Below are positions 1-8,198 of a stretch of 64,000 nucleotides of DNA, piece by piece. Origin of the DNA: Staphylococcus phage vB_Sau_P68; sequence record OL741057.1; one strand, given 5' to 3'. Under the pieces are notes generated by a model that worked only from the letters and a program-made list of their open reading frames with translations, was not told the origin of the DNA and did no database searches. The position numbers and the translations under genes are program-made. Every line of letters starts with the position of its first letter. Position 1 is the stretch's first letter.

Positions 1-76
1 GCCTGGTTTCCAACCTGCAGGGGGCATTACCTTGTCCGCCATTTTTTGAATGTTGCCTAAATTTGAATTTGCCATT
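1..76 (-). CDS. hypothetical protein, N-terminal part only (MANSNLGNIQKMADKVMPPAGWKPG...; gene runs off the left edge)
   Basis: minus-strand ATG at 76 preceded by AGGAGG RBS and a TTGACT-N17-TATTAT promoter at 107-135. Confidence 0.45.
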
Positions 77-106
77 TTGTATTTCCTCCTTTTTTTAACT
101 ACCTTA

Positions 107-135
107 ATAATATCATGGTAGGGCTTGGAAGTCAA
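107..135 (-). promoter_or_regulatory. sigma-A-like early promoter (minus: TTGACT-N17-TATTAT); its -35 sits inside the palindrome GGGCTTGGAAGTCAAGCCC (121-139)
   Basis: read directly from sequence; consensus hexamers with 17-nt spacer. Confidence 0.6.
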
Positions 136-149
136 GCCCTTTATTTAAT

Positions 150-413
150 TTATTTACAAATCACTGTGTAAGGTGTTTCTAGGTCTGCTTCTTCAATGCT
201 TGTTTCAAAGTTTTCCCATACGTTCTTGATTGCTTTGTTTTTAAAAGTTTCTACGTTCATTCCACTGTGACATGTGAACTGGCTTACCTTGACGATTCCT
301 TTACTTCTAAGTGCTATTTGTAGGGTAACAATCGTTTCTCCTAGGTTGCCTTGTCTGATTTCCTCTTGTGCGTGGTTTAAAGCTTGTGTGAATGTTTTTT
401 TCATAATTATCAA
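150..413 (-). CDS. hypothetical protein (87 aa)
   Basis: ORF track; RBS aaaggaga; promoter 437-465 upstream. Confidence 0.55.
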   Translation of the reverse strand: MIIMKKTFTQALNHAQEEIRQGNLGETIVTLQIALRSKGIVKVSQFTCHSGMNVETFKNKAIKNVWENFETSIEEADLETPYTVICK

Positions 414-436
414 TTCCTCTCTTATTTGTTATCTTA

Positions 437-465
437 ATAATAACATGTATTTGGAAGGTTGTCAA
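437..465 (-). promoter_or_regulatory. sigma-A-like promoter (minus: TTGACA-N17-TATTAT)
   Basis: sequence. Confidence 0.6.
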
Positions 466-523
466 CACCTTTTTAAAAGTTTTTTTTATTTGATGTTTTG
501 ACCGCTTCCTTACTACACTCTAT

Positions 524-552
524 ATATTACAGTATAATGATATAAAAGTCAA
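524..552 (-). promoter_or_regulatory. second, tandem upstream promoter (minus: TTGACT-N17-TAATAT)
   Basis: sequence. Confidence 0.5.
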
Positions 553-597
553 TAGATTTATGAAACTTTTTTAAATAAATTATTTTAAGTAAAACTC

Positions 598-626
598 TTG
601 ACAAAAGGGGCAAAATTTGAGATAAT
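598..626 (+). promoter_or_regulatory. plus-strand promoter TTGACA-N17-GATAAT for the HNH gene
   Basis: sequence. Confidence 0.5.
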
Positions 627-658
627 GGAAGAGAGAATCAAAAAAGGAGAGGTAAAAA

Positions 659-1144
659 ATGATTGAAAATAAAATTAATGAAGATTGGAAACTTATAAAA
701 AAATTATCTAATGAAAATAATAAATATTATGTTTCTAATAACGGAATTGTTAAAAGTAGTATCAAAGGAAAAGAAAACACCTTAACAAATTTTCCAAATA
801 AAAAAGGGTATTTAATGGTTAGAATAGCAAAAAGAAATATAAAAGTTCATAGGCTTGTATATGAATATTTTGGAACAGATTTCAATAAAGATTATCATGT
901 ACACCATAAAGACGAAAACAAACAAAATAACTGTATTGATAACCTAGAATGTATTAGCCCATCAGAACATACCACACATCACAATAAAACTGATGATTTT
1001 AGATACAAAAGAGGTAAAGCACCAACACAAAAAGAAATTAAAGAAATAAAACAGAAATACAAGCCATATAAATATACTGCACCGATGTTATCAAAAGAAT
1101 ATAATTTGAGTGTAGATACAATAAAATATATTTTAAAAAATTAA
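659..1144 (+). CDS. HNH homing endonuclease (NUMOD4-like N-terminus + HNH_3-type motif)
   Basis: WKLIKKL...YYVSNNGIVKS (NUMOD4-like); GYLMVRI...HRLVYEYF...HHKDENKQNNCIDNLECISPSEH (HNH_3); orientation opposite to neighbours; own promoter. Confidence 0.75.
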   Translation: MIENKINEDWKLIKKLSNENNKYYVSNNGIVKSSIKGKENTLTNFPNKKGYLMVRIAKRNIKVHRLVYEYFGTDFNKDYHVHHKDENKQNNCIDNLECISPSEHTTHHNKTDDFRYKRGKAPTQKEIKEIKQKYKPYKYTAPMLSKEYNLSVDTIKYILKN

Positions 1145-1152
1145 TTTAAGTA

Positions 1153-1181
1153 TTGACAATAAGTAGCAAACATAGTATAAT
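1153..1181 (+). promoter_or_regulatory. plus-strand consensus promoter TTGACA-N17-TATAAT with no ORF downstream
   Basis: sequence. Confidence 0.55.
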
Positions 1182-1333
1182 TGAGATGAGTGGTTATTTT
1201 TTTTTAAAAAAGGACGGATTTGCCCCGAAACCCCTTCTTTGGTCTTGGGCTCCTTAACCTTATATCTATATTATACTATGGATTGAAAGAAATGTCAACA
1301 CTTTTTTATAAACTTTTTTAATTAATTTAAGTA

Positions 1334-1362
1334 TTGACAAGTGGGAGCAAAATTGATATAAT
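1334..1362 (+). promoter_or_regulatory. plus-strand consensus promoter TTGACA-N17-TATAAT with no ORF downstream
   Basis: sequence. Confidence 0.55.
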
Positions 1363-1486
1363 GGGGGTGGAGGGTATTTTTATCTATAATTTTTTTATAT
1401 AATATTATTTTTATACGAAAAAAAGTCATCACTTCATTATCTCATTTTTTCGTACATTTGTCAAGCACATATTCAAAAAGAAATAA

Positions 1487-1521
1487 CCGCTTCAAATTAT
1501 TAAATAAGAAGCGGTTTATAT
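1487..1521 (-). terminator. rho-independent terminator, probably bidirectional (AACCGCTTC...GAAGCGGTT hairpin with T-runs on both strands)
   Basis: sequence. Confidence 0.6.
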
Positions 1522-1528
1522 AATTTTT

Positions 1529-1711
1529 TTATTTAAATAAAATTTCATCTTCAAATAATTGAATAGTCTTGTTATCAACCTTACAGATAAATATATAAGT
1601 TTCTGAATCATTAAAATCGTATTCTGATTTAGATAAAGGTTTTATAATTTCTACATTTGAGTTGTTTAATTTTTTTAATTCTGAATCATTTGTATTTAAT
1701 AGAGTAGTCAT
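1529..1711 (-). CDS. hypothetical small protein (60 aa)
   Basis: ORF track; followed by a terminator. Confidence 0.4.
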   Translation of the reverse strand: MTTLLNTNDSELKKLNNSNVEIIKPLSKSEYDFNDSETYIFICKVDNKTIQLFEDEILFK

Positions 1712-1766
1712 ATTATCATTTCCTTTATTGTATAATTTTTTTATATAATGCCTAGGGAATAAATCC

Positions 1767-2168
1767 CTAGAACATTAAATCATGTAGCTCATAAGATAAT
1801 AAACTTAAATCTTCATATTCTACAATGTATAGCACACCATTAACTTTTATGCTAATTGCTTCTTGTTGATAAAAAACAATCAACTGTCTAGCAATTTTAG
1901 AAATGGCGTGTAATAACCCTTGTTGGTCGTTCACGTCCTCCATATCCTTGTCATAGTACCATTCAAAGTTAGTGTTATTGTCTTGCATTATACGTTGTTC
2001 ATTGTCTGACCACCATTGACCTTTAACGTCTGTAGTAGTACAACCTCCACATATTTTAGTGATATTTTCTAATGATTCACGAATTGCTAAGTTGTCAATC
2101 TCAACACCGTTGTTATCTTCCTTAGGTACGATAATTTCCACTTTATTTTGTAATTTGAACATTTTCAT
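1767..2168 (-). CDS. hypothetical protein (start moved to MKMFK)
   Basis: the longer ORF-track start would overlap promoter 2207-2235; RBS aaaaggaa before ATGAAAATG. Confidence 0.55.
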   Translation of the reverse strand: MKMFKLQNKVEIIVPKEDNNGVEIDNLAIRESLENITKICGGCTTTDVKGQWWSDNEQRIMQDNNTNFEWYYDKDMEDVNDQQGLLHAISKIARQLIVFYQQEAISIKVNGVLYIVEYEDLSLLSYELHDLMF

Positions 2169-2248
2169 CAATTCCTTTTCTGATTTGTATTTTTTAACTA
2201 TCTTAATAATAACATGCCAGGGCTTGGAAGTCAAGCCCTATTTTAAAA

Positions 2249-2572
2249 TTAATCTTCATAAATGAATAAGTTTTTGCTTGGTAAGTATCTGAAGTTTGGT
2301 GCAATCCCTAAGCAATATACAAGCGTGTTGAGGCTATCACGGTCTGAATTGCTTTCACCATAGTACGAAACAATTTCATTTACGCTTAAGTCAATCTCAA
2401 TCGTTTGAGTTCCCCAATGTCTCATAACCAATTTGTTTCCGTCAATCTCAATTGCGTATTTTTCCTCAAGCTCACCCTTGCTATATCCGTCAAAGTAACG
2501 ACCGTTTAAAATTGCTTGCCCTTTGTTTTCAGCTTTTTCCAATAAGTTTTCAATAGTTTTGATAAATTTCAT
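2249..2572 (-). CDS. hypothetical protein
   Basis: ORF track; RBS aaaaggaattgat; tandem promoters upstream. Confidence 0.55.
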   Translation of the reverse strand: MKFIKTIENLLEKAENKGQAILNGRYFDGYSKGELEEKYAIEIDGNKLVMRHWGTQTIEIDLSVNEIVSYYGESNSDRDSLNTLVYCLGIAPNFRYLPSKNLFIYED

Positions 2573-2738
2573 TTGTATCAATTCCTTTTCTGTTTGATTT
2601 GTTATACTAAGTATATCATGTGGCTAAGTGACTTGTCAACAGTTTTTTTAAAACTTTTTTTACTAGGTTGGAAGTGGTTTGTCCGCTTCCCTTACCTTGT
2701 ATCTTAATAATAACATGTAATGTTTAAGTTGTCAACAG

Positions 2739-3020
2739 TTATTTAAAAGTATTTTCAATTTCTTTTATTAATTCTTGAGCATTTGGGAAGTTTAAAGTGT
2801 AACCGTAAAAGTCAATACATACGTTCCCTAAGTCTTCATCTAAAAAGTCGGGAATAATAAAAAGACTCTCAACTTTTCCGTCACGTATAAAGCTTGGTGT
2901 GATATCCTCATAAGCACCACTAGGGCTTGTGATTTCTAATACTGTAATAGTTTCATCGTATTCAAATTCGTACCCTTTGCTTTCTAGTGTTTCAATTACG
3001 TTGTTTAATGTGTTTTTCAT
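2739..3020 (-). CDS. hypothetical protein (93 aa)
   Basis: ORF track. Confidence 0.55.
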   Translation of the reverse strand: MKNTLNNVIETLESKGYEFEYDETITVLEITSPSGAYEDITPSFIRDGKVESLFIIPDFLDEDLGNVCIDFYGYTLNFPNAQELIKEIENTFK

Positions 3021-3091
3021 AATAAATCAATTCCTCTCATTTGGTATATATTAATAATAACATGCTAGGGCTTGAAAGTCAAGCCCTTTAT

Positions 3092-3520
3092 TTAATTAAT
3101 TTCTTTTATCCAATCTTTTTCAATTCTGTTATATACGCATTGCACTTCTTCCTTTAGTTGTGGTTTTTCAAATTCTGATTTTATTAAGTCCACTGTGTCA
3201 AATTCTTCTTCATCGGCAAAATAAGCTAAGTCTGAAAATGAGTAATAATCATGTGCAAAGTATTCAGATGTTGGAATTTCTAACGTTAAAGTTATCTCAT
3301 TTTTTAAAGAGCTTAATGATGTTATTTCTTCAATACGTCCCTCATTCTCTTTCATGTAATCATTTTCTAACATTCCAAAGAATAAACCTTTATAGCCAGT
3401 AATTTCTTTCAAATAATCGTAAGCATAATCTGAAAATGATGTATCATTTTTAGCGTAACAAACTCCCTCATTATTTATTATTTCTAAAACTTCATTCGAT
3501 ACTTTTGTTATAATTTTCAT
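3092..3520 (-). CDS. hypothetical acidic protein (142 aa)
   Basis: ORF track; two tandem TTGACA-N17-TATTAT promoters upstream at 3555-3690. Confidence 0.55.
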   Translation of the reverse strand: MKIITKVSNEVLEIINNEGVCYAKNDTSFSDYAYDYLKEITGYKGLFFGMLENDYMKENEGRIEEITSLSSLKNEITLTLEIPTSEYFAHDYYSFSDLAYFADEEEFDTVDLIKSEFEKPQLKEEVQCVYNRIEKDWIKEIN

Positions 3521-3686
3521 AATTAATCAATTCCTTTTCTGTTTGTTTTTGTTATCTTAATAATATCATGGTTTCAAGTTACTGTCAATAGTTTTTTTAA
3601 ACTTTTTTTATTTAGGTTGGAAGCGGTTGACCGCTTCCCTTACCTTGTATCTTAATAATAACATGTAGTGCTTAAGTTGTCAACAC

Positions 3687-3995
3687 TTATTTAAAACTTT
3701 CTATATAAGCATTTTCATCAAGTCCAACACGTGAATTAAAATCTTTTAAGTTTTCATATGTTGGATTTATCCAAATTCCATTCACTACATTTTCATGGTG
3801 TTCTTGCATTTCTTCAATAGTATCAAATATATCTAACCAATCCGTCAATTCATCTATAGTGTCATTTGTCACGTCACCTAGGTAATTGCTTTCTACAGTT
3901 AAATCTTTCATTAGGTTGTCTAATCCAATTGCTAATAATTCCGGACTTTCAAAACCACTGTAAGAGTAAAATTTCAAGTTTTGTACGTTTTTCAT
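3687..3995 (-). CDS. hypothetical protein (start at MKNVQ)
   Basis: ORF track; the RBS spacing favours the second ATG. Confidence 0.5.
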   Translation of the reverse strand: MKNVQNLKFYSYSGFESPELLAIGLDNLMKDLTVESNYLGDVTNDTIDELTDWLDIFDTIEEMQEHHENVVNGIWINPTYENLKDFNSRVGLDENAYIESFK

Positions 3996-4063
3996 TTGTA
4001 TCATTTCCTTTTTGTTTTATTTGTTATCTTAATAATATCATGGTTTCAAGTGACTGTCAAGCC

Positions 4064-4222
4064 TTATCTTAAAAAAATATTTATGTTATCTTGTAGTAGT
4101 AAAAACCAATTTACAAGCTTAGGCGTGATTGATGCAACTAAACCGCCTATAATAAGTAAAAGGATATTGTCCGTTTTTTGTGTTGATTTGATTGTTTTGT
4201 TTTTCCATTTAAATTTTAGCAT
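4064..4222 (-). CDS. small hydrophobic membrane protein (~52 aa: MLKFKWKNKTIKSTQKTDNILLLIIGGLVASITPKLVNWFLLL...)
   Basis: found by hand; GGGAGG RBS 8 nt before the ATG; TTGACT promoter at ~4255-4290; same strand as neighbours; replaces the plus-strand ORF 3981..4352 in the track. Confidence 0.4.
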   Translation of the reverse strand: MLKFKWKNKTIKSTQKTDNILLLIIGGLVASITPKLVNWFLLLQDNINIFLR

Positions 4223-4319
4223 TTGTGTTGCCTCCCTTGTTGGTATACCTATATATTACTATAAGAATAAACATAAGTCAATAGGTTTTTTAAATCTTTT
4301 TGAAAAAGTTAAAATAATA

Positions 4320-4345
4320 AAAAGCCCACATAATAGTAGGCTTTG
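4320..4345 (-). terminator. rho-independent terminator (AAAGCC...GGCTTT hairpin + T-run on the minus strand)
   Basis: sequence. Confidence 0.45.
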
Positions 4346-4348
4346 TGT

Positions 4349-4495
4349 TTAACTCCAATTTATAGCTTGTCTTTCTTTTTGTAGTTCAAGCAATCTCATT
4401 TGTAAAGAGCTTGCTTGTGCTTTACTGTTTTCATTATGTTTTATCATTTCTTTAACCTCAGTGATTTCTCTTTTTACTATTCTAATATCTCTCAT
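4349..4495 (-). CDS. small protein (~47 aa: MRDIRIVKREITEVKEMIKHNENSKAQASSLQMRLLELQKERQAINWS)
   Basis: found by hand; TTGACT promoter at ~4560-4590; terminator immediately downstream. Confidence 0.35.
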   Translation of the reverse strand: MRDIRIVKREITEVKEMIKHNENSKAQASSLQMRLLELQKERQAINWS

Positions 4496-4627
4496 TTTAA
4501 CAACCGCCTTTTTTTTATTTGTTTTCCTAATTGCTATACCTATATATTAAACCATAATAAGATATAAGTCAATAGATTTATTGAAATTAATTTAAAAAAC
4601 TTTTTTGAATAAAAGTATTGACAATAA

Positions 4628-4656
4628 GTCCGAATTATTATATAATGGAAGTGGAG
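4628..4656 (+). promoter_or_regulatory. plus-strand consensus promoter TTGACA-N17-TATAAT with no ORF downstream
   Basis: sequence. Confidence 0.55.
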
Positions 4657-4721
4657 CCTTTTTTTATCTATAATTTTTTTATATAATAATAAAAGAAAGT
4701 AAAAAAAGTTTCTGAAAGGTG

Positions 4722-4750
4722 TTGACAATTATGGTTATTCATAGTATACT
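4722..4750 (+). promoter_or_regulatory. plus-strand promoter TTGACA-N17-TATACT, convergent with the minus-strand promoter at ~4890-4925
   Basis: sequence. Confidence 0.5.
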
Positions 4751-4984
4751 ATATATAGAAAGTAAAACAGTGGTAACCCGCCTAACCCTTCCACTATAAA
4801 TATGACAAGGTGGGGAGAAAGAGCGGTTCTAAAACCATTTAATATAAATTTTTTATACAATAATTTTTTTATACTAAAAAAGGTCTTCACTTCATTATAC
4901 CATAAAAAATATATTCTTGTCAACAGTCAATTTTACACTAATTTATTTATTAAATAATTTTTTTATATAAATTTAAACAAATAA

Positions 4985-5012
4985 AAAACCCTAGGAATTT
5001 AATCCCAGGGAA
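4985..5012 (-). terminator. rho-independent terminator (CCCTGGGATT..AATTCCTAGGG hairpin + T-run on the minus strand)
   Basis: sequence. Confidence 0.5.
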
Positions 5013-5025
5013 TTCTATAATTTTT

Positions 5026-5292
5026 TTATACTTCTAACATTGTATTTAAATCTTCTAACACTTCAATAATATAATTATGAAATAATATAGGTGTAACATT
5101 AGAATTTTTATATAACTTTTCTTCATCTGTTATAATTGCATTATTTAATGCAATACTATCTTGAATTTGAAAATAATTATTTAATTCTTTTAATTCATTT
5201 AAAGTTACATCATAATTGAGTGCAATTCTATTTATTTCTTCATTAGTTCCAAAAAGTACAGTTTTAATAATTTTATTTAATTTTTTATTCAT
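5026..5292 (-). CDS. hypothetical protein (88 aa)
   Basis: ORF track. Confidence 0.5.
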   Translation of the reverse strand: MNKKLNKIIKTVLFGTNEEINRIALNYDVTLNELKELNNYFQIQDSIALNNAIITDEEKLYKNSNVTPILFHNYIIEVLEDLNTMLEV

Positions 5293-5341
5293 AATATCAT
5301 ATCCCTTTTTTATAAATTTTTTATTTAATTCAGAAGCGGTT

Positions 5342-5635
5342 TTAATTCTTAACCGCTTCTATTTCTTTAACTTTGTCTAGTGCAAAATTTAATGTATCTT
5401 CTATATTATAACTTTGGAATACTACACCGCCGCCAAACCATTTTGCACGATATTTATTAAAGCCATACATCATATTGATTTTGTCATAGTCCCATAAACC
5501 AATACCAAGGTCATAGAAGTCCACTACATAACGTGGGTTTCCGTTTACATCATTGGGAATTCTGAACACTTCAATTTCTTTTCCTTGTACTGTGTGAGTT
5601 TCTGTGTATACGTAATTTTTAGCCATAATAATCAA
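5342..5635 (-). CDS. hypothetical protein (97 aa)
   Basis: ORF track. Confidence 0.55.
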   Translation of the reverse strand: MIIMAKNYVYTETHTVQGKEIEVFRIPNDVNGNPRYVVDFYDLGIGLWDYDKINMMYGFNKYRAKWFGGGVVFQSYNIEDTLNFALDKVKEIEAVKN

Positions 5636-5736
5636 ATCCTATTCTATAATTTTTTTATTTAATTTCTGTTCCGTGTGCTTGTGTTCCTTACATCTATTAT
5701 ATTACTACATCTTTAGGGCTTTTGCAAGCCCTATTT

Positions 5737-6045
5737 TTAAATTTCTTCAATAAATTTTATTTCTTTATCTTTCACACCGTACACCGTATTTTCATATACG
5801 ATTATAATCACATCGTCAATTACATTAACCAACATGCTAGCCGGTTGTGTTTGCCTTCTCATGCTCATGAGAGGCGTTTTGCGGAACATTTGAATAGTTT
5901 CATAGTTTCCCTTAACGCTCACTATTAAAGCTGTGTGTGTGCGTGTGTGGTTCACTGTGCTTTCATACAGTGGCGGTTCTGAACATCTGTACCCATCCAT
6001 CTGCCATAGCTCCTGGATAGTATCTGCAATTTCTTTGATTTCCAT
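5737..6045 (-). CDS. hypothetical protein (102 aa)
   Basis: ORF track. Confidence 0.5.
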   Translation of the reverse strand: MEIKEIADTIQELWQMDGYRCSEPPLYESTVNHTRTHTALIVSVKGNYETIQMFRKTPLMSMRRQTQPASMLVNVIDDVIIIVYENTVYGVKDKEIKFIEEI

Positions 6046-6351
6046 TTAAATCAATTCCCTTCGTGTTATTTATTACACTACTAATATTAAAGGATAGCCG
6101 GCAATAAGTCAATAGATTTATGAAACTTTTTTAAAAAACTTTTAAAGCCCTTTTTTTGCTTTATATAGTAGAAACTGGAAATTAAGCAAAAAATAAATAG
6201 TATAATTTTTTTATATAAATCTATATATAAGACAGACAGACCCCTCCAATTATTATGATAAAGGATAAACACCGATTTGTCAAGCACCAATTTTACACTT
6301 TTTTAAATTGTCATAAAGTGTAAAACTTCTCATTTAATTTGCTAAAAAGTA

Positions 6352-6379
6352 TTGAAATTATATATCAATCTGCTATAAT
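6352..6379 (+). promoter_or_regulatory. plus-strand promoter TTGAAA-N16-TATAAT
   Basis: sequence. Confidence 0.55.
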
Positions 6380-6436
6380 AGTATTTGTAAGGTAATCAAA
6401 CGACCTTAACAACTAAACGAAAAGGATTGATATATA

Positions 6437-6721
6437 ATGATAATTTACAATGAGGACAACACGCAACTAATCGAATTTTTTGAAGGGCTTAACAATGGTA
6501 TGGCAATTAATCAAACGTTCCGAGGTCATTCTTATGAGTTCTATAAGGAAAACGGGAATATCCTAGTAAGACTTGAAGGTGAAACAATCGGTCACATGGT
6601 GCAAAGTGAGTACCGTCACACATATGAAAGCGTTCAATATGAAAATTGGGAAACTGAACAAGTTAGGGTAATTGAATGGTTGGATGAATTAGATGCCTAC
6701 GAATTTGAATACGAAGTATAA
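6437..6721 (+). CDS. hypothetical protein (94 aa), plus strand
   Basis: ORF track; RBS aaaagga; own promoter and own terminator. Confidence 0.55.
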   Translation: MIIYNEDNTQLIEFFEGLNNGMAINQTFRGHSYEFYKENGNILVRLEGETIGHMVQSEYRHTYESVQYENWETEQVRVIEWLDELDAYEFEYEV

Positions 6722-6740
6722 TATATAAAAAAATTATAGA

Positions 6741-6780
6741 AATCCCTGGGAATATAATTCCTGGGGATTCTTTTTGCGGT
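6741..6780 (+). terminator. rho-independent terminator (AATCCCTGGGAAT..ATTCCTGGGGATT + TTTTT)
   Basis: sequence. Confidence 0.55.
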
Positions 6781-6935
6781 CTGCTTGAAGCGGTTGGGAT
6801 AAACTAGGGGAATTCCTCCCTAGCTACTTGACCTTTTTTGACTTTTATAACAAGGTCTAATCCTAAGGTACTACTTATTGATTATTCTAATAGTATTAAT
6901 AACCATCTACTTAGACAATATCCGCTTCTGAATAA

Positions 6936-6963
6936 TTAACCTTATTAATAACCATCTACTTGT
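6936..6963. repeat. 28-nt direct repeat TTAACCTTATTAATAACCATCTACTTGT, copy 1 (partial copies at 6895-6915 and 7431-7465)
   Basis: exact match with 7349-7376. Confidence 0.8.
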
Positions 6964-7099
6964 CTTATTTACCCTATTATACACAATCAAATTACAAGGA
7001 GTAACTTAACCTATATAACATTTACATTAACTTTACAAATATGTAATACTACTGTAACCTAATTCTCATCTAATTCTCATAAACATATGATATAATCTA

Positions 7100-7405
7100 A
7101 ACAACAAAGTAATTAGTTGTTAGTAATTTATTACTGATAACTATTACAGGCGTTGCCTGGTTGTTGTAGCGTAGCGTTAAACAACAACTTGGCATAAGCT
7201 GTTTTGTTCTTAGCTTTTCTAAAAAGCTAAGTCGTACGCTAGTACGAAACAGTATCTATTACATTATATATAACATCCTAATAGATAAACAAATAAATAT
7301 TATATAAGATATAAGGGGCATACTCTGTTCAAATTGACAAGCAATTATTAACCTTATTAATAACCATCTACTTGTAACCTATACCTATTCAGTATAGGTA
7401 TTTTT
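7100..7405 (+). ncRNA. candidate ~300-nt structured non-coding RNA: extended -10 promoter TGaTATAAT at 7088-7096, three strong hairpins at 7160-7250, rho-independent terminator at 7376-7405
   Basis: no ORF with RBS; stems GTTGTTG/CAACAAC, CTTAGCTTTT/AAAAGCTAAG (10 bp), TCGTAC/GTACGA; terminator ATACCTAT..ATAGGTAT + TTTTTTATT. Confidence 0.35.
7349..7376. repeat. 28-nt direct repeat, copy 2
   Basis: exact match with 6936-6963. Confidence 0.8.
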
Positions 7406-7595
7406 TATTATTACTCAATATTATTACTCAGAATAATTAATCAATATTTGAGGTATCTACTTGTAAATATACTCAAAGTAACCTAAACCCTATCTCAAAA
7501 TACCTTAGTTTTATCTTAACATCTTAACCCTATCGCATCCTACGGTAAATCGGAACGTATCCTATTTGTTTTATCGTATTTTTAACCTAAATAAA

Positions 7596-7620
7596 TAACC
7601 GCTTCCTATCCCAAAGAAGC
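7596..7620 (-). terminator. rho-independent terminator (ACCGCTTC..GAAGCGGT hairpin; T-rich run follows on the minus strand)
   Basis: sequence. Confidence 0.55.
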
Positions 7621-7630
7621 GGTCATCATC

Positions 7631-7867
7631 CTATTCTATTGTAATATCAGGTAACGTCTTGTTATCCTTCGTAAGTTCATCTAAAGTTAAAGGTTTTCTA
7701 TATATTAAGAAGTTTTCTAGTAGCTCATCATAAGACTCGGAGTTACTATTTATACTCATAATATTATAACCTTCACCTTGACCAACTACTATACCAAAAT
7801 CCTCAATAACAGAGTTATAAACAATACAATTAATATCTATATCTGTCTTGTTAAACTTTAACTTCAT
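7631..7867 (-). CDS. hypothetical protein (78 aa)
   Basis: ORF track. Confidence 0.5.
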   Translation of the reverse strand: MKLKFNKTDIDINCIVYNSVIEDFGIVVGQGEGYNIMSINSNSESYDELLENFLIYRKPLTLDELTKDNKTLPDITIE

Positions 7868-7949
7868 ATTAAACTCCTAACTACTTTTTTCTTATTATAC
7901 CATATTTCTCATATAAAAGCAAATACACTACTTACGATTTGTCAACATC

Positions 7950-8198
7950 CTACAACTCTGCATTATAACCACGGTTGATAAGTAATATACCTTCTCTATT
8001 AACCGCTTCAATTAATCTATCTATATCTATGTCTATACAGAATTTTGTTTTATACATAGTATAGTCTGTTGGGTATATATTACTTATATCCTTATGCCAA
8101 GTCTCATATAAGAAGTCAATTAAACCGATTCTACCTAACCTATCCTGAATCGTCTTCATACTCTGCCTATGATAAACTGTATAATATACATTAAACAT
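7950..8198 (-). CDS. hypothetical protein (82 aa)
   Basis: ORF track. Confidence 0.5.
   Translation of the reverse strand: MFNVYYTVYHRQSMKTIQDRLGRIGLIDFLYETWHKDISNIYPTDYTMYKTKFCIDIDIDRLIEAVNREGILLINRGYNAEL

What the first reader, a model, noticed from the sequence alone, without database searches (positions are those of the whole stretch)
107..3086. Palindrome that is a promoter on the minus strand and an intrinsic terminator on the plus strand (3 copies)
GGGCTTGGAAGTCAAGCCC occurs at 121-139 and 2221-2239, with a variant GGGCTTGAAAGTCAAGCCC at 3068-3086. On the minus strand the loop and right arm give a -35 TTGACT, followed 17 nt later by TATTAT, and each copy sits upstream of a minus-strand gene. 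On the plus strand the same 7-bp GC stem is followed directly by a T-run (TTTATTTAATTTATTT), which is an intrinsic terminator. This compact dual-use element would block antisense read-through from the plus-strand promoters in this region while driving early genes.
Basis: partly seen in the sequence, partly recalled or inferred. Interest (0 to 1): 0.55.

Follow-up and report, generated by a model that had tools for sequence, protein, structure and literature searches.

The report
Early promoter with built-in hairpin
Three early promoters in the terminal repeat of a Staphylococcus Twort-like phage have their -35 box built into a conserved GC hairpin; the promoter is already known from phage K, and the hairpin is most likely a transcription insulator like the promoter/stem-loop cassettes of T4-type phages, but which strand it acts on is unproven.

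Summary
GGGCTTGRAAGTCAAGCCC occurs three times (121-139, 2220-2238, 3068-3086; none expected by chance). Each copy overlaps a minus-strand TTGACT-17-TGnTATTAT promoter upstream of a small gene.

The window is the long terminal repeat of a Staphylococcus Twortvirinae phage. The phage K ortholog is already listed as the early promoter of gp017/treQ.

The hairpin is selected as a base-paired structure. Relatives carry compensatory variants (GGGC/GCCC, GGGG/CCCC, AAGGC/GCCTT). Terminal-repeat promoters of Bacillus (Goe8, Mater) and Listeria (A511, CKA15) Herelleviridae share the design with unrelated stems.

But the T-run is the A/T-rich upstream element shared with the six hairpin-less sister promoters. 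Two of the three copies have no plus-strand promoter feeding them. Phage K RNA-seq lists no terminator there.

Every copy lies 3-10 nt past the stop codon of the upstream same-strand gene. In the Bacillus phages such hairpins precede nearly every gene of one-directional arrays.

My best reading is a PeSL-like promoter/stem-loop cassette acting mainly on same-strand transcripts, with plus-strand termination as a side effect. This is a new variant of a known kind, of moderate interest.

The parts
107..135 (-). Copy 1 promoter: -35 TTGACT at 135-130, 17-nt spacer, TG at 115-114, -10 TATTAT at 112-107. It drives the gene that starts at base 75 and runs off the left edge of the window.
120..140 (.). 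Copy 1 hairpin AGGGCTTG-GAAGT-CAAGCCCT (palindrome 121-139), dG -12.5 kcal/mol. It starts 10 nt past the stop codon (152-150) of the upstream minus-strand gene 404-150.
141..155 (+). Copy 1 T-rich tract TTATTTAATTTATTT (tail score 4.22). On the minus strand it is the A-rich UP-like region of the promoter and holds the upstream gene's stop codon.
2206..2234 (-). Copy 2 promoter TTGACT-17-TATTAT with TG. It drives gene 2168-1767 (133 aa, phrog_3543) and is the positional ortholog of the phage K promoter for gp017/treQ, downstream of the TreP-like gene.
2219..2239 (.). Copy 2 hairpin (palindrome 2220-2238), dG -12.5 kcal/mol, 10 nt past the stop codon of the TreP-like gene 2572-2249. Its plus-strand tail ATTTTAAAATTAATC is weak (3.12).
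3054..3082 (-). Copy 3 promoter TTGACT-17-TATTAT with TG. It drives gene 3020-2739 (93 aa).
3067..3087 (.). Copy 3 hairpin AGGGCTTGA-AAG-TCAAGCCCT (palindrome 3068-3086), dG -13.2 kcal/mol, 5 nt past the stop codon (3094-3092) of gene 3520-3092. Its plus-strand tail at 3088-3102 is TTATTTAATTAATTT (4.13).
5699..5733 (-). Fourth, variant element: hairpin TAGGGCTTGCAAAAGCCCTA (5733-5714) with the same outer stem and a 4-nt loop. It carries a weak promoter-like TTGCAA-17-TAATAT and starts 3 nt past the stop codon of the TreJ-like gene 6045-5737. Its plus-strand tail is TTTTTAAATTTCTTC (4.87).
437..465 (-). Hairpin-less member of the same 74-nt promoter family. The others are at 1270-1298, 2707-2735, 3560-3588, 3655-3683 and 4032-4060. 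They serve as the control showing that the T-rich flank belongs to the promoter family.
598..1362 (+). Plus-strand promoters at 598-626 (drives the HNH endonuclease gene 659-1144), 1153-1181 and 1334-1362 (both 12/12 consensus). No plus-strand terminator-like site lies between them and the copy 2 hairpin.
4618..4750 (+). Second cluster of plus-strand consensus promoters (4618-4646 and 4722-4750). The next plus-strand terminator-like site is the variant hairpin at 5714.

Best explanation
The element is a composite early-promoter/stem-loop cassette of the phage's long terminal repeat. It works like the PeSL (promoter-early stem-loop) cassettes of T4-type phages.

Shown:
- It is a strong sigma-A-type extended -10 promoter on the minus strand.
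- The palindrome over the -35 box is kept as a base-paired structure through compensatory changes, across several Herelleviridae lineages.

Inferred:
- The hairpin's main job is on the same (minus, tre-gene) strand. It forms in RNA that reads in from the upstream tre gene, 3-10 nt after that gene's stop codon.
- There it marks or attenuates the 3' end of that transcript, or protects it from degradation, exactly where the next promoter restarts transcription. Neighbouring small early genes thereby become semi-independent units.
- The promoter's A-rich UP-like region abuts the stem. On the plus strand the same hairpin therefore has full intrinsic-terminator anatomy and should also stop any plus-strand polymerase that reaches it, for example from P+1153 or P+1334 at copy 2. 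I regard that as a real but secondary effect.
- The repeated cassettes probably also serve as recombination junctions for gene shuffling.
For: Promoter:
- Consensus match and family membership.
- The phage K ortholog is listed as the early promoter of gp017 (PMC9241854 Table S2A).
- It is annotated as a promoter in 812h1 and fRuSau02.

Hairpin is a discrete, selected feature:
- Pairing in the fixed register is bimodal. 31 promoters score 8/8 and 7 score 7/8, against a bulk at 2-3/8.
- In 30 Twortvirinae copies, 100% of cells pair. Two pairs show changes on both sides (C:G to G:C in 12 of 30; G:C to A:U with a G.U intermediate). The covariation score is 0.208 against 0.098 in shuffles, with 0 of 500 shuffles reaching it.
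- At the site orthologous to copy 1, EW42, Stab22 and CF7 carry the GGGG/CCCC version.

Same design with unrelated stems:
- Bacillus megaterium phages Goe8 and Mater, and a related contig, have six different perfect 10-bp stems.
- Listeria A511 and CKA15 have GGGTTGACAAGTTCAACCC.

Same-strand role:
- Every copy follows a same-strand stop codon by 3-10 nt.
- In the Goe8-like contig (11 promoters, all on one strand) and in Goe8 (scored elements all on the strand of its genes), hairpin promoters precede nearly every gene. Each copy is individually maintained. Redundant antisense stops should not need that.
- Phage K lists at least seven co-directional terminator/promoter overlaps with the -35 box inside the hairpin (Tables S2A/S2B).
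- CKA15 ONT-cappable-seq found efficient terminal-repeat transcript ends that ARNold does not predict. One flanks CKA15_007-008 (PMC12282133), whose downstream spacer has no canonical terminator. The -35 hairpin forms in the predicted fold of that spacer.
- PeSLs have the same parts list and tested terminator and promoter activity (PMC2839356).
- Near-intact stems show more G.U on the promoter strand than on the other strand (6 vs 2, not significant).
Against: - On the minus strand the hairpin is followed by ACCATGWTATTAT, not a U-tract. Tail scores are 1.7-1.9, below the regional mean. Canonical same-strand termination is therefore not expected.
- Hairpin promoters have even fewer downstream T's than hairpin-less ones (1.92 vs 2.48, p=0.001).
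- Elsewhere in this window the phage does build same-strand -35-overlapping terminators with a proper T-tract. The missing T-tract here looks deliberate.
- Only the plus strand has terminator anatomy. Plus-side tails of hairpin promoters are slightly better than those of hairpin-less ones (3.67 vs 3.31, p=0.04).
- No 3'-end data exist for this site. The exact CKA15 end coordinate after CKA15_008 is not given in the text.
- The excess of promoter-strand wobble pairs is not significant. Six of the seven G.U cells in Twortvirinae sit opposite the fixed TTG of the -35 box, so they say nothing about strand.
Confidence: 0.45

Rival explanations
1. The hairpin plus T-run is selected as a plus-strand intrinsic terminator. 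It stops antisense transcription, which comes from the consensus plus-strand promoters inside the repeat or from the flanking bofL-side operon that reads into the repeat. The same DNA serves as a minus-strand promoter.
For: - A canonical stem (dG -12.5 to -13.2 kcal/mol) is followed directly by a T-rich tail on the plus strand only: 4.22, 3.12 and 4.13, against 1.7-1.9 on the minus strand.
- These are the only -35-overlapping hairpins in the 64-kb window whose T-tract faces away from the promoter.
- Plus-side tails are slightly higher than at hairpin-less promoters (p=0.04).
- In the window and in Stab22, Stab23, CF7, EW6 and EW42, the first plus-strand terminator-like site after the plus-strand promoter cluster is a hairpin promoter 0.5-1 kb downstream.
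- The HNH gene at 659-1144 has no terminator of its own.
Against: - The T-run is shared with hairpin-less family members and matches the AAAAAGTTTTAAAA-type upstream element also seen in SPO1 and the Bacillus phages.
- Copies 1 and 3, the single phage K copy, and the 8-12 serial copies in Goe8 have no antisense promoter feeding them.
- The hairpins protect only genes to their right and lie after 1-2 genes that are already exposed to antisense transcription.
- The K RNA-seq tables list no terminator and no antisense RNA at this site.
- Each copy is individually maintained by compensatory change. That is unexpected for redundant serial stops.
Confidence: 0.28
2. The palindrome is an operator. 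A dimeric phage or host DNA-binding protein binds the two half-sites over the -35 box and shuts off, or activates, this subset of early promoters.
For: - It is a perfect inverted repeat centred on the -35 box and spacer, and only a subset of the promoter family carries it.
- The outer AGGG/CCCT is nearly invariant in 30 Twortvirinae copies.
- The K study speculates that a factor binds the -35 region to end early transcription (PMC9241854 Discussion).
Against: - Both arms change together while keeping complementarity (C:G to G:C; G:C to A:T). The Bacillus phages have six unrelated stems.
- G.T intermediates occur.
- The fourth window element keeps the outer arms but changes half-site spacing by 3 bp.
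- All of this fits base pairing and not sequence-specific protein contacts.
Confidence: 0.05
3. The hairpin has no transcriptional role. It persists because the whole promoter cassette is copied and exchanged between intergenic sites by recombination or gene conversion. It may simply be a recombination-prone palindrome that mediates gene shuffling.
For: - The cassettes are repeated.
- Homology with relatives breaks inside or at the edge of all three hairpin cassettes. Examples are positions 104 and 155 at copy 1, 2188, 2203 and 2250 at copy 2, and 3085 at copy 3.
- 6 of 67 breakpoint clusters fall in the 3.2% of sequence that the hairpin cassettes occupy (p=0.02).
- The same post-TreP cassette drives different downstream genes in phage K and in the window.
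- The stem type switches at an orthologous site, as conversion would produce.
Against: - Copying alone does not explain strict maintenance of pairing through independent compensatory changes in three subfamilies.
- Breakpoints are enriched in intergenic DNA generally. Within intergenic DNA they are not enriched in cassettes (7 of 39 clusters against a 20% share).
Confidence: 0.1

Closest known systems
PeSL (promoter-early stem-loop) cassettes of T4-type phages (Arbiol et al. 2010, PMC2839356; Comeau et al. 2014, PMC4122927)
   Same: - Repeated intergenic cassettes in a hypervariable region full of small genes of unknown function.
- The parts are the upstream gene's stop codon inside an A/T-rich stretch, a strong sigma-70-type early promoter, and a GC stem-loop that can overlap the -35 box.
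- The Shine-Dalgarno sequence and start codon of the next gene follow.
- G-T pairs are noted in PeSL stems.
- PeSLs are proposed to insulate neighbouring units and to act as recombination junctions.
   Different: - The phage family and host are different (Herelleviridae on Firmicutes), and there is no sequence relationship.
- Only 3-4 of about 10 promoters in this repeat carry the stem.
- The stem is always in one register over the -35 box.
- The only T-tract faces the opposite strand.
- Terminator activity and mini-circle formation have not been tested here.
Phage K early promoter of gp017/treQ (promoter no. 10, position 6690, in PMC9241854 Table S2A; annotated 'promoter' in 812h1 MH844529 and fRuSau02 MF398190)
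   Same: It is the direct ortholog of copy 2: the same position after the TreP gene, the same palindrome GGGCTTGAAAGTCAAGCCC, and the same -10 box.
   Different: In the papers and records I read, it is described only as a promoter. I found no mention of the palindrome or of a terminator role.
Co-directional overlapping terminator/promoter pairs of Kayvirus genomes (phage K T44/P68, T45/P69, T46/P70, T31/P51, T33/P53, T40/P63, T43/P67)
   Same: The -35 hexamer sits inside a terminator hairpin. These pairs are also present in this window at about 13798, 15787, 18628, 25807, 31787 and 56630.
   Different: Those elements have the T-tract on the promoter strand, inside the spacer, and are listed as terminators in the K study's terminator table. 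The terminal-repeat elements have no same-strand T-tract and are not listed as terminators.
Intrinsic (Rho-independent) and bidirectional terminators
   Same: On the plus strand there is a GC-rich 8-9 bp stem, a 3-5 nt loop and a T-rich tail. The stem energy is comparable to that of the other predicted terminators in the window.
   Different: There is a U-tract on one side only. No plus-strand gene ends at the hairpin. No 3'-end evidence exists.

Membership tests
Sigma-A/sigma-70 extended -10 promoter (minus strand) | -35 hexamer close to TTGACA | tested here: met
   TTGACT (5 of 6) in all three copies.
Sigma-A/sigma-70 extended -10 promoter (minus strand) | 17 +/- 1 bp spacer, a -10 hexamer close to TATAAT, and TG at -15/-14 | tested here: met
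   17-nt spacer, TATTAT (5 of 6), and TG present in all three copies.
Sigma-A/sigma-70 extended -10 promoter (minus strand) | A gene with a ribosome-binding site downstream on the same strand | tested here: met
   Genes start at bases 75, 2168 and 3020, each 25-35 nt after the -10 box and preceded by a GGAGG-like site.
Sigma-A/sigma-70 extended -10 promoter (minus strand) | Mapped transcription start | not testable with these tools
   The phage K ortholog is listed as an early promoter in an RNA-seq study. No 5'-end mapping is available for this phage.
Intrinsic terminator, plus strand | Stable GC-rich stem-loop | tested here: met
   8-9 bp stem with 5 G-C pairs, dG -12.5 to -13.2 kcal/mol, z-scores -2.3 to -3.6.
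Intrinsic terminator, plus strand | U-rich tract directly after the stem | tested here: met
   Tail scores are 4.22 and 4.13 for copies 1 and 3 (6 T in the first 9 nt). Copy 2 is marginal at 3.12 (4 T in 9). The same T-richness is present beside hairpin-less promoters.
Intrinsic terminator, plus strand | Lies at the end of a transcription unit on that strand | tested here: inconclusive
   Copy 2 lies 0.9-1.6 kb downstream of P+598, P+1153 and P+1334, with two antisense genes in between. Copies 1 and 3 have no plus-strand promoter upstream, either in the window or in relatives.
Intrinsic terminator, plus strand | Observed RNA 3' ends | not testable with these tools
   The site is not among the 51 terminators listed for phage K, nor in the second K study's table.
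Intrinsic terminator, minus strand (same direction as the promoter) | U-rich tract directly after the stem | tested here: not met
   The tails ACCATGATATTATTA, GGCATGTTATTATTA and AGCATGTTATTATTA score 1.67-1.76, below the regional mean of 2.33.
PeSL-type promoter/stem-loop cassette | Repeated composite motif: A/T-rich region holding the upstream stop codon, an early promoter, a stem-loop overlapping the promoter, then the Shine-Dalgarno sequence and start codon | tested here: met
   compared with the description in PMC2839356.
PeSL-type promoter/stem-loop cassette | Located in a hyperplastic region of small genes of unknown function | tested here: met
   The best relative covers only 68% of bases 1-6000, in 7 pieces. 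Flanking genes hit only unknown-function PHROGs or none.
PeSL-type promoter/stem-loop cassette | Insertion, deletion and replacement junctions coincide with the cassettes | tested here: inconclusive
   6 of 67 breakpoint clusters fall in hairpin cassettes against 3.2% expected (p=0.02). There is no enrichment over other intergenic DNA.
PeSL-type promoter/stem-loop cassette | The stem-loop terminates or attenuates same-strand transcription (reporter-tested in phi1/RB49) | not testable with these tools
   Only indirect support exists: the CKA15 terminal-repeat transcript end after CKA15_007-008.
PeSL-type promoter/stem-loop cassette | Member of the T4-type phage lineage in which PeSLs were defined | tested here: not met
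   The window is Herelleviridae, Twortvirinae. The element is therefore an analogue, not a homologue.

The most novel reading that the evidence does not exclude
Hairpins built over the -35 box of terminal-repeat early promoters are a conserved device of Herelleviridae. They occur in Twortvirinae, Bastillevirinae and Jasinkavirinae, are kept by compensatory evolution, and are absent from SPO1. In this reading they end the upstream early transcript without a U-tract, exactly at the point where the next promoter re-initiates. The same hairpin is a canonical terminator for the opposite strand, so one roughly 45-bp element would insulate each host-takeover gene in both directions. A U-tract-independent, promoter-coupled termination mechanism would be the new part.
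Probability: 0.25. Interest if true: 0.6.

Novelty: new variant of a known kind. Interest (0 to 1): 0.4.

Why it matters
The terminal repeats of Twort-like phages carry the first genes expressed after infection: host-takeover genes, nearly all of unknown function. These phages are used therapeutically.

Knowing how each small gene is insulated and driven would help in three ways.
- Defining the true early transcription units.
- Designing expression cassettes for Staphylococcus.
- Explaining why the gene content of this region shuffles so freely between phages.

If the hairpin ends same-strand transcripts without a U-tract, it would also explain the efficient, unpredicted transcript ends seen in the terminal repeat of a Listeria relative.

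Tried and rejected
- **Strand test from wobble pairs.** All 7 G.U cells in 30 Twortvirinae copies are on the promoter strand, but 6 sit opposite the fixed TTG of the -35 box. At free positions, pooled with the Bacillus phages, the count is 6 vs 2 (15 vs 7 with looser cut-offs), which is not significant. Strand-biased C-to-T mutation would confound it in any case. Inconclusive.
- **T-run as evidence for a terminator.** Rejected as decisive, because hairpin-less sister promoters have the same T-rich flank.
- **Correlation with plus-strand promoters.** It holds for the orthologous post-TreP site in six relatives, but that is one evolutionary observation, and phage K has the hairpin without any upstream plus-strand promoter.
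- **Protein-based retrieval of related loci from IMG/VR.** Only 5 loci were returned.
- **Exact-pattern scan of IMG/VR.** It found mostly unrelated phage contigs. In those, GGGSTTGAC..AASCCC hairpins are followed by a same-strand T-run and a -10 box. This shows the design recurs but does not bear on this element's strand.
- **Supplements of the 515A1 transcriptome paper.** They hold no match to the stem.
- **Rfam.** Nothing relevant at E<=1 in bases 1-8000.
- **SPO1 terminal repeat.** It has related promoters, but the hairpins lie 20-40 nt upstream of the -35 box and do not overlap it.
- **Operator hypothesis.** Rejected on the compensatory changes and the variable arm spacing.

Full report
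**What the window is**

Bases 1 to about 6800 match the long terminal repeat (LTR) of Staphylococcus Twort-like myoviruses (Herelleviridae, Twortvirinae). The matches are mosaic. The best relative, phage CF7, covers 68% of bases 1-6000 at 88% identity in 7 pieces. Features under the matches are the tre (terminal-repeat-encoded) genes.

The tre genes lie on the minus strand. An HNH endonuclease gene (659-1144) lies on the plus strand.

**Checking the observation**

GGGCTTGRAAGTCAAGCCC occurs at 121-139, 2220-2238 and 3068-3086, with none expected by chance.

Each copy overlaps a minus-strand TTGACT-17-TATTAT promoter with TG at -15/-14. Each lies 25-35 nt upstream of a ribosome-binding site and a start codon.

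With the closing A-T pair the stem is 8-9 bp, at dG -12.5 to -13.2 kcal/mol.

The T-run is good after copies 1 and 3 and weaker after copy 2. A fourth hairpin with the same outer stem and a 4-nt loop lies at 5714-5733.

**The promoter**

The three copies belong to a nine-member family of 74-nt promoter cassettes. All nine have a TTGACW -35 box and an A/T-rich upstream region, and eight of them have TG at -15/-14.

The ortholog of copy 2 sits after the TreP gene in phage K.
- It is promoter no. 10 (position 6690, TTGACTTTCAAGCCCTACCATGTTATTAT) for gp017, classed as early (PMC9241854 Table S2A).
- It appears again in the second K study (PMC11598898 Table S1).
- It is annotated 'promoter' in 812h1 and fRuSau02.

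The promoter half of the finding is therefore already known.

**Is the hairpin more than an accident of copying?**

Yes. I scanned the LTR regions of 18 relatives plus the window (bases 1-8000).
- Pairing between positions -5..+3 and +9..+16 relative to the -35 box is bimodal. 31 promoters score 8/8, 7 score 7/8, and the bulk score 2-3/8.
- Three perfect stem types occur: AGGGCTTG/CAAGCCCT, AGGGGTTG/CAACCCCT and AAGGCTTG/CAAGCCTT. A G.T intermediate is present in Stab23.
- In a 30-sequence alignment every cell pairs. Two pairs change on both sides. The covariation score exceeds all 500 shuffles and all slid controls.
- At the site orthologous to copy 1, with flanks 93% identical, EW42 has the GGGG/CCCC version.

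The design also extends well beyond Staphylococcus phages.
- A contig related to Bacillus megaterium phages Goe8 and Mater has 11 promoters in 5 kb. Most carry a 9-10 bp hairpin over the -35 box.
- Together with Goe8 and Mater this gives six different perfect stems (AGGTGG, TAGCGG, TAGGTG, ATGTGG, AGACGG, TGGTGG and their complements).
- Listeria phages A511 and CKA15 have one such promoter in their repeat (GGGTTGACAAGTTCAACCC).
- SPO1 has related promoters, but its hairpins lie 20-40 nt upstream of the -35 box.

These co-ordinated changes, together with the altered arm spacing in the fourth window copy, argue against a protein operator.

**Which strand does the hairpin serve?**

- Only the plus strand has a T-rich tail: 4.22, 3.12 and 4.13, against 1.67-1.76 on the minus strand.
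- Among 11 promoters in the 64-kb window with a hairpin over the -35 box, these three are the only ones whose T-tract faces away from the promoter. Six others have it on the promoter strand. They correspond to elements that phage K lists as both terminator and promoter.
- Plus-side tails are slightly better at hairpin promoters than at hairpin-less ones (3.67 vs 3.31, p=0.04), and same-side tails are worse.
- Strong plus-strand promoters exist in the repeat (598, 1153, 1334, 4618, 4722). The next plus-strand terminator-like sites after them are copy 2 and the variant at 5714. The same layout recurs in five relatives.

*Against it:*
- The T-rich flank is also present at the six hairpin-less family members (2.4-4.8). 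It matches the AAAAAGTTTTAAAA-type upstream element of repeat promoters in SPO1 and the Bacillus phages. The promoter alone therefore explains it.
- Copies 1 and 3, and the single phage K copy, have no plus-strand promoter upstream.
- The two K transcriptome papers list no terminator and no antisense RNA at this site.
- In the Goe8-like contig (11 promoters, all on one strand) and in Goe8 (scored elements all on the strand of its genes), hairpin promoters precede nearly every gene, and each keeps its own compensated stem. Individually maintained copies fit a job tied to each gene better than a row of redundant antisense stops.

*For a same-strand role:*
- Every window copy starts 3-10 nt after the stop codon of the upstream tre gene.
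- ONT-cappable-seq of CKA15 found two efficient LTR transcript ends that ARNold does not predict. One is at position 2230. The other flanks CKA15_007-008 (PMC12282133).
- The 102-nt spacer after CKA15_008 has no canonical terminator. The -35 hairpin forms in its predicted fold. The exact end coordinate is not given, so this support is indirect.

*The wobble-pair test is inconclusive.* Promoter-strand G.U outnumbers opposite-strand G.U by 6 to 2 at unconstrained positions, which is not significant.

**Closest known system**

PeSL cassettes of T4-type phages have the same parts list.
- The upstream stop codon lies in an A/T-rich stretch.
- A strong early promoter follows.
- A GC stem-loop can overlap the -35 box.
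- The ribosome-binding site of the next small gene comes next.

They were shown by reporter assays to act as promoters and as same-strand terminators or attenuators, and to mediate gene shuffling (PMC2839356, PMC4122927).

Here, homology with relatives breaks inside or at the edge of all three hairpin cassettes. The post-TreP cassette drives different genes in phage K and in the window. Statistically the link is weak, because breakpoints are enriched in intergenic DNA generally.

The element is an analogue of PeSLs, not a relative. It differs in that its only T-tract is on the opposite strand.

**Verdict**

| Claim | Probability |
|---|---|
| Promoter on the minus strand | about 0.95 (already known in relatives) |
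| Hairpin is a selected structure | about 0.85 |
| Main role is on same-strand transcripts (PeSL-like insulation, with physical plus-strand termination as a side effect) | about 0.45 |
| Selected purpose is plus-strand (antisense) termination | about 0.28 |
| Recombination or copying only | about 0.1 |
| Operator | about 0.05 |

No paper or record that I read mentions the palindrome.

It is a new variant of a known kind, of moderate interest. The open question is whether these hairpins end same-strand transcripts without a U-tract.

Noticed in passing
window 1153-1181(+)/1298-1270(-), 1334-1362(+)/1464-1436(-), 4722-4750(+)/4923-4894(-): Pairs of near-perfect consensus promoters face each other only about 130-170 bp apart in gene-free stretches. 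P-1298 is followed by a minus-strand terminator (GGGGCAAATCCGTCCT plus a T-run, 1226-1211), which would give an RNA of about 60 nt fully overlapped by the plus-strand transcript. The cluster is conserved in Stab22, Stab23, CF7, EW6 and EW42. It may be a small sense/antisense RNA pair.
   Followed up: partly
window 1378-1403, 1724-1749, 4662-4687 (weaker copies near 4855, 4955, 5015, 5315, 5645, 6200): The repeated motif TTTTATCTATAATTTTTTTATATAAT recurs in intergenic DNA of the repeat (families D8 and D10). Its function is unknown.
   Followed up: no
window 2644-2748 and 3592-3696: A 105-nt tandem-promoter module is duplicated at 86% identity. It holds a GC hairpin (GGAAGCGGTTGACCGCTTCC at about 3617-3636) between the two promoters, and that hairpin has no T-tract on either strand. 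It corresponds to the region phage K reports as small RNA snc003.
   Followed up: partly
window 659-1144 (+): This is an HNH homing-endonuclease gene with its own promoter (598-626) but no terminator of its own. The phage K homologue treM is followed directly by one. A second promoter of the same type (4618-4646) matches the K treM promoter but has no gene behind it, suggesting that an endonuclease gene was lost there.
   Followed up: partly
window 6931-6963 and 7343-7375: A 33-nt direct repeat, AATWATTAACCTTATTAATAACCATCTACTTGT, occurs twice 412 bp apart in a gene-poor stretch at the edge of the terminal repeat (family D15). These are probably the repeat-boundary sequences.
   Followed up: no
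window about 13798, 15787, 18628, 25807, 31787, 56630 (minus strand): Outside the repeat there are same-direction terminator/promoter overlaps: the -35 hexamer lies in the loop or an arm of a hairpin that is followed by a T-tract and the -10 box. Elements of this kind are listed both as terminators and as promoters in phage K's supplementary tables, though not discussed there.
   Followed up: partly
L059 (IMG/VR contig), L067 16000-21584 (Goe8), L068 (Mater terminal repeat): The terminal-repeat regions of Bacillus megaterium phages carry dense arrays of promoters, one per small gene. Each has a 9-10 bp hairpin over the -35 box, and there are six different compensated stems. I found no description of this in the papers read.
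   Followed up: partly
L008-L055 (IMG/VR contigs of 35-50% G+C): Many unrelated phage contigs carry AAAGGGSTTGACNNNNAASCCCT followed by a short T-run and a -10 box at the correct spacing. The terminator-with-embedded-promoter design therefore recurs widely.
   Followed up: no
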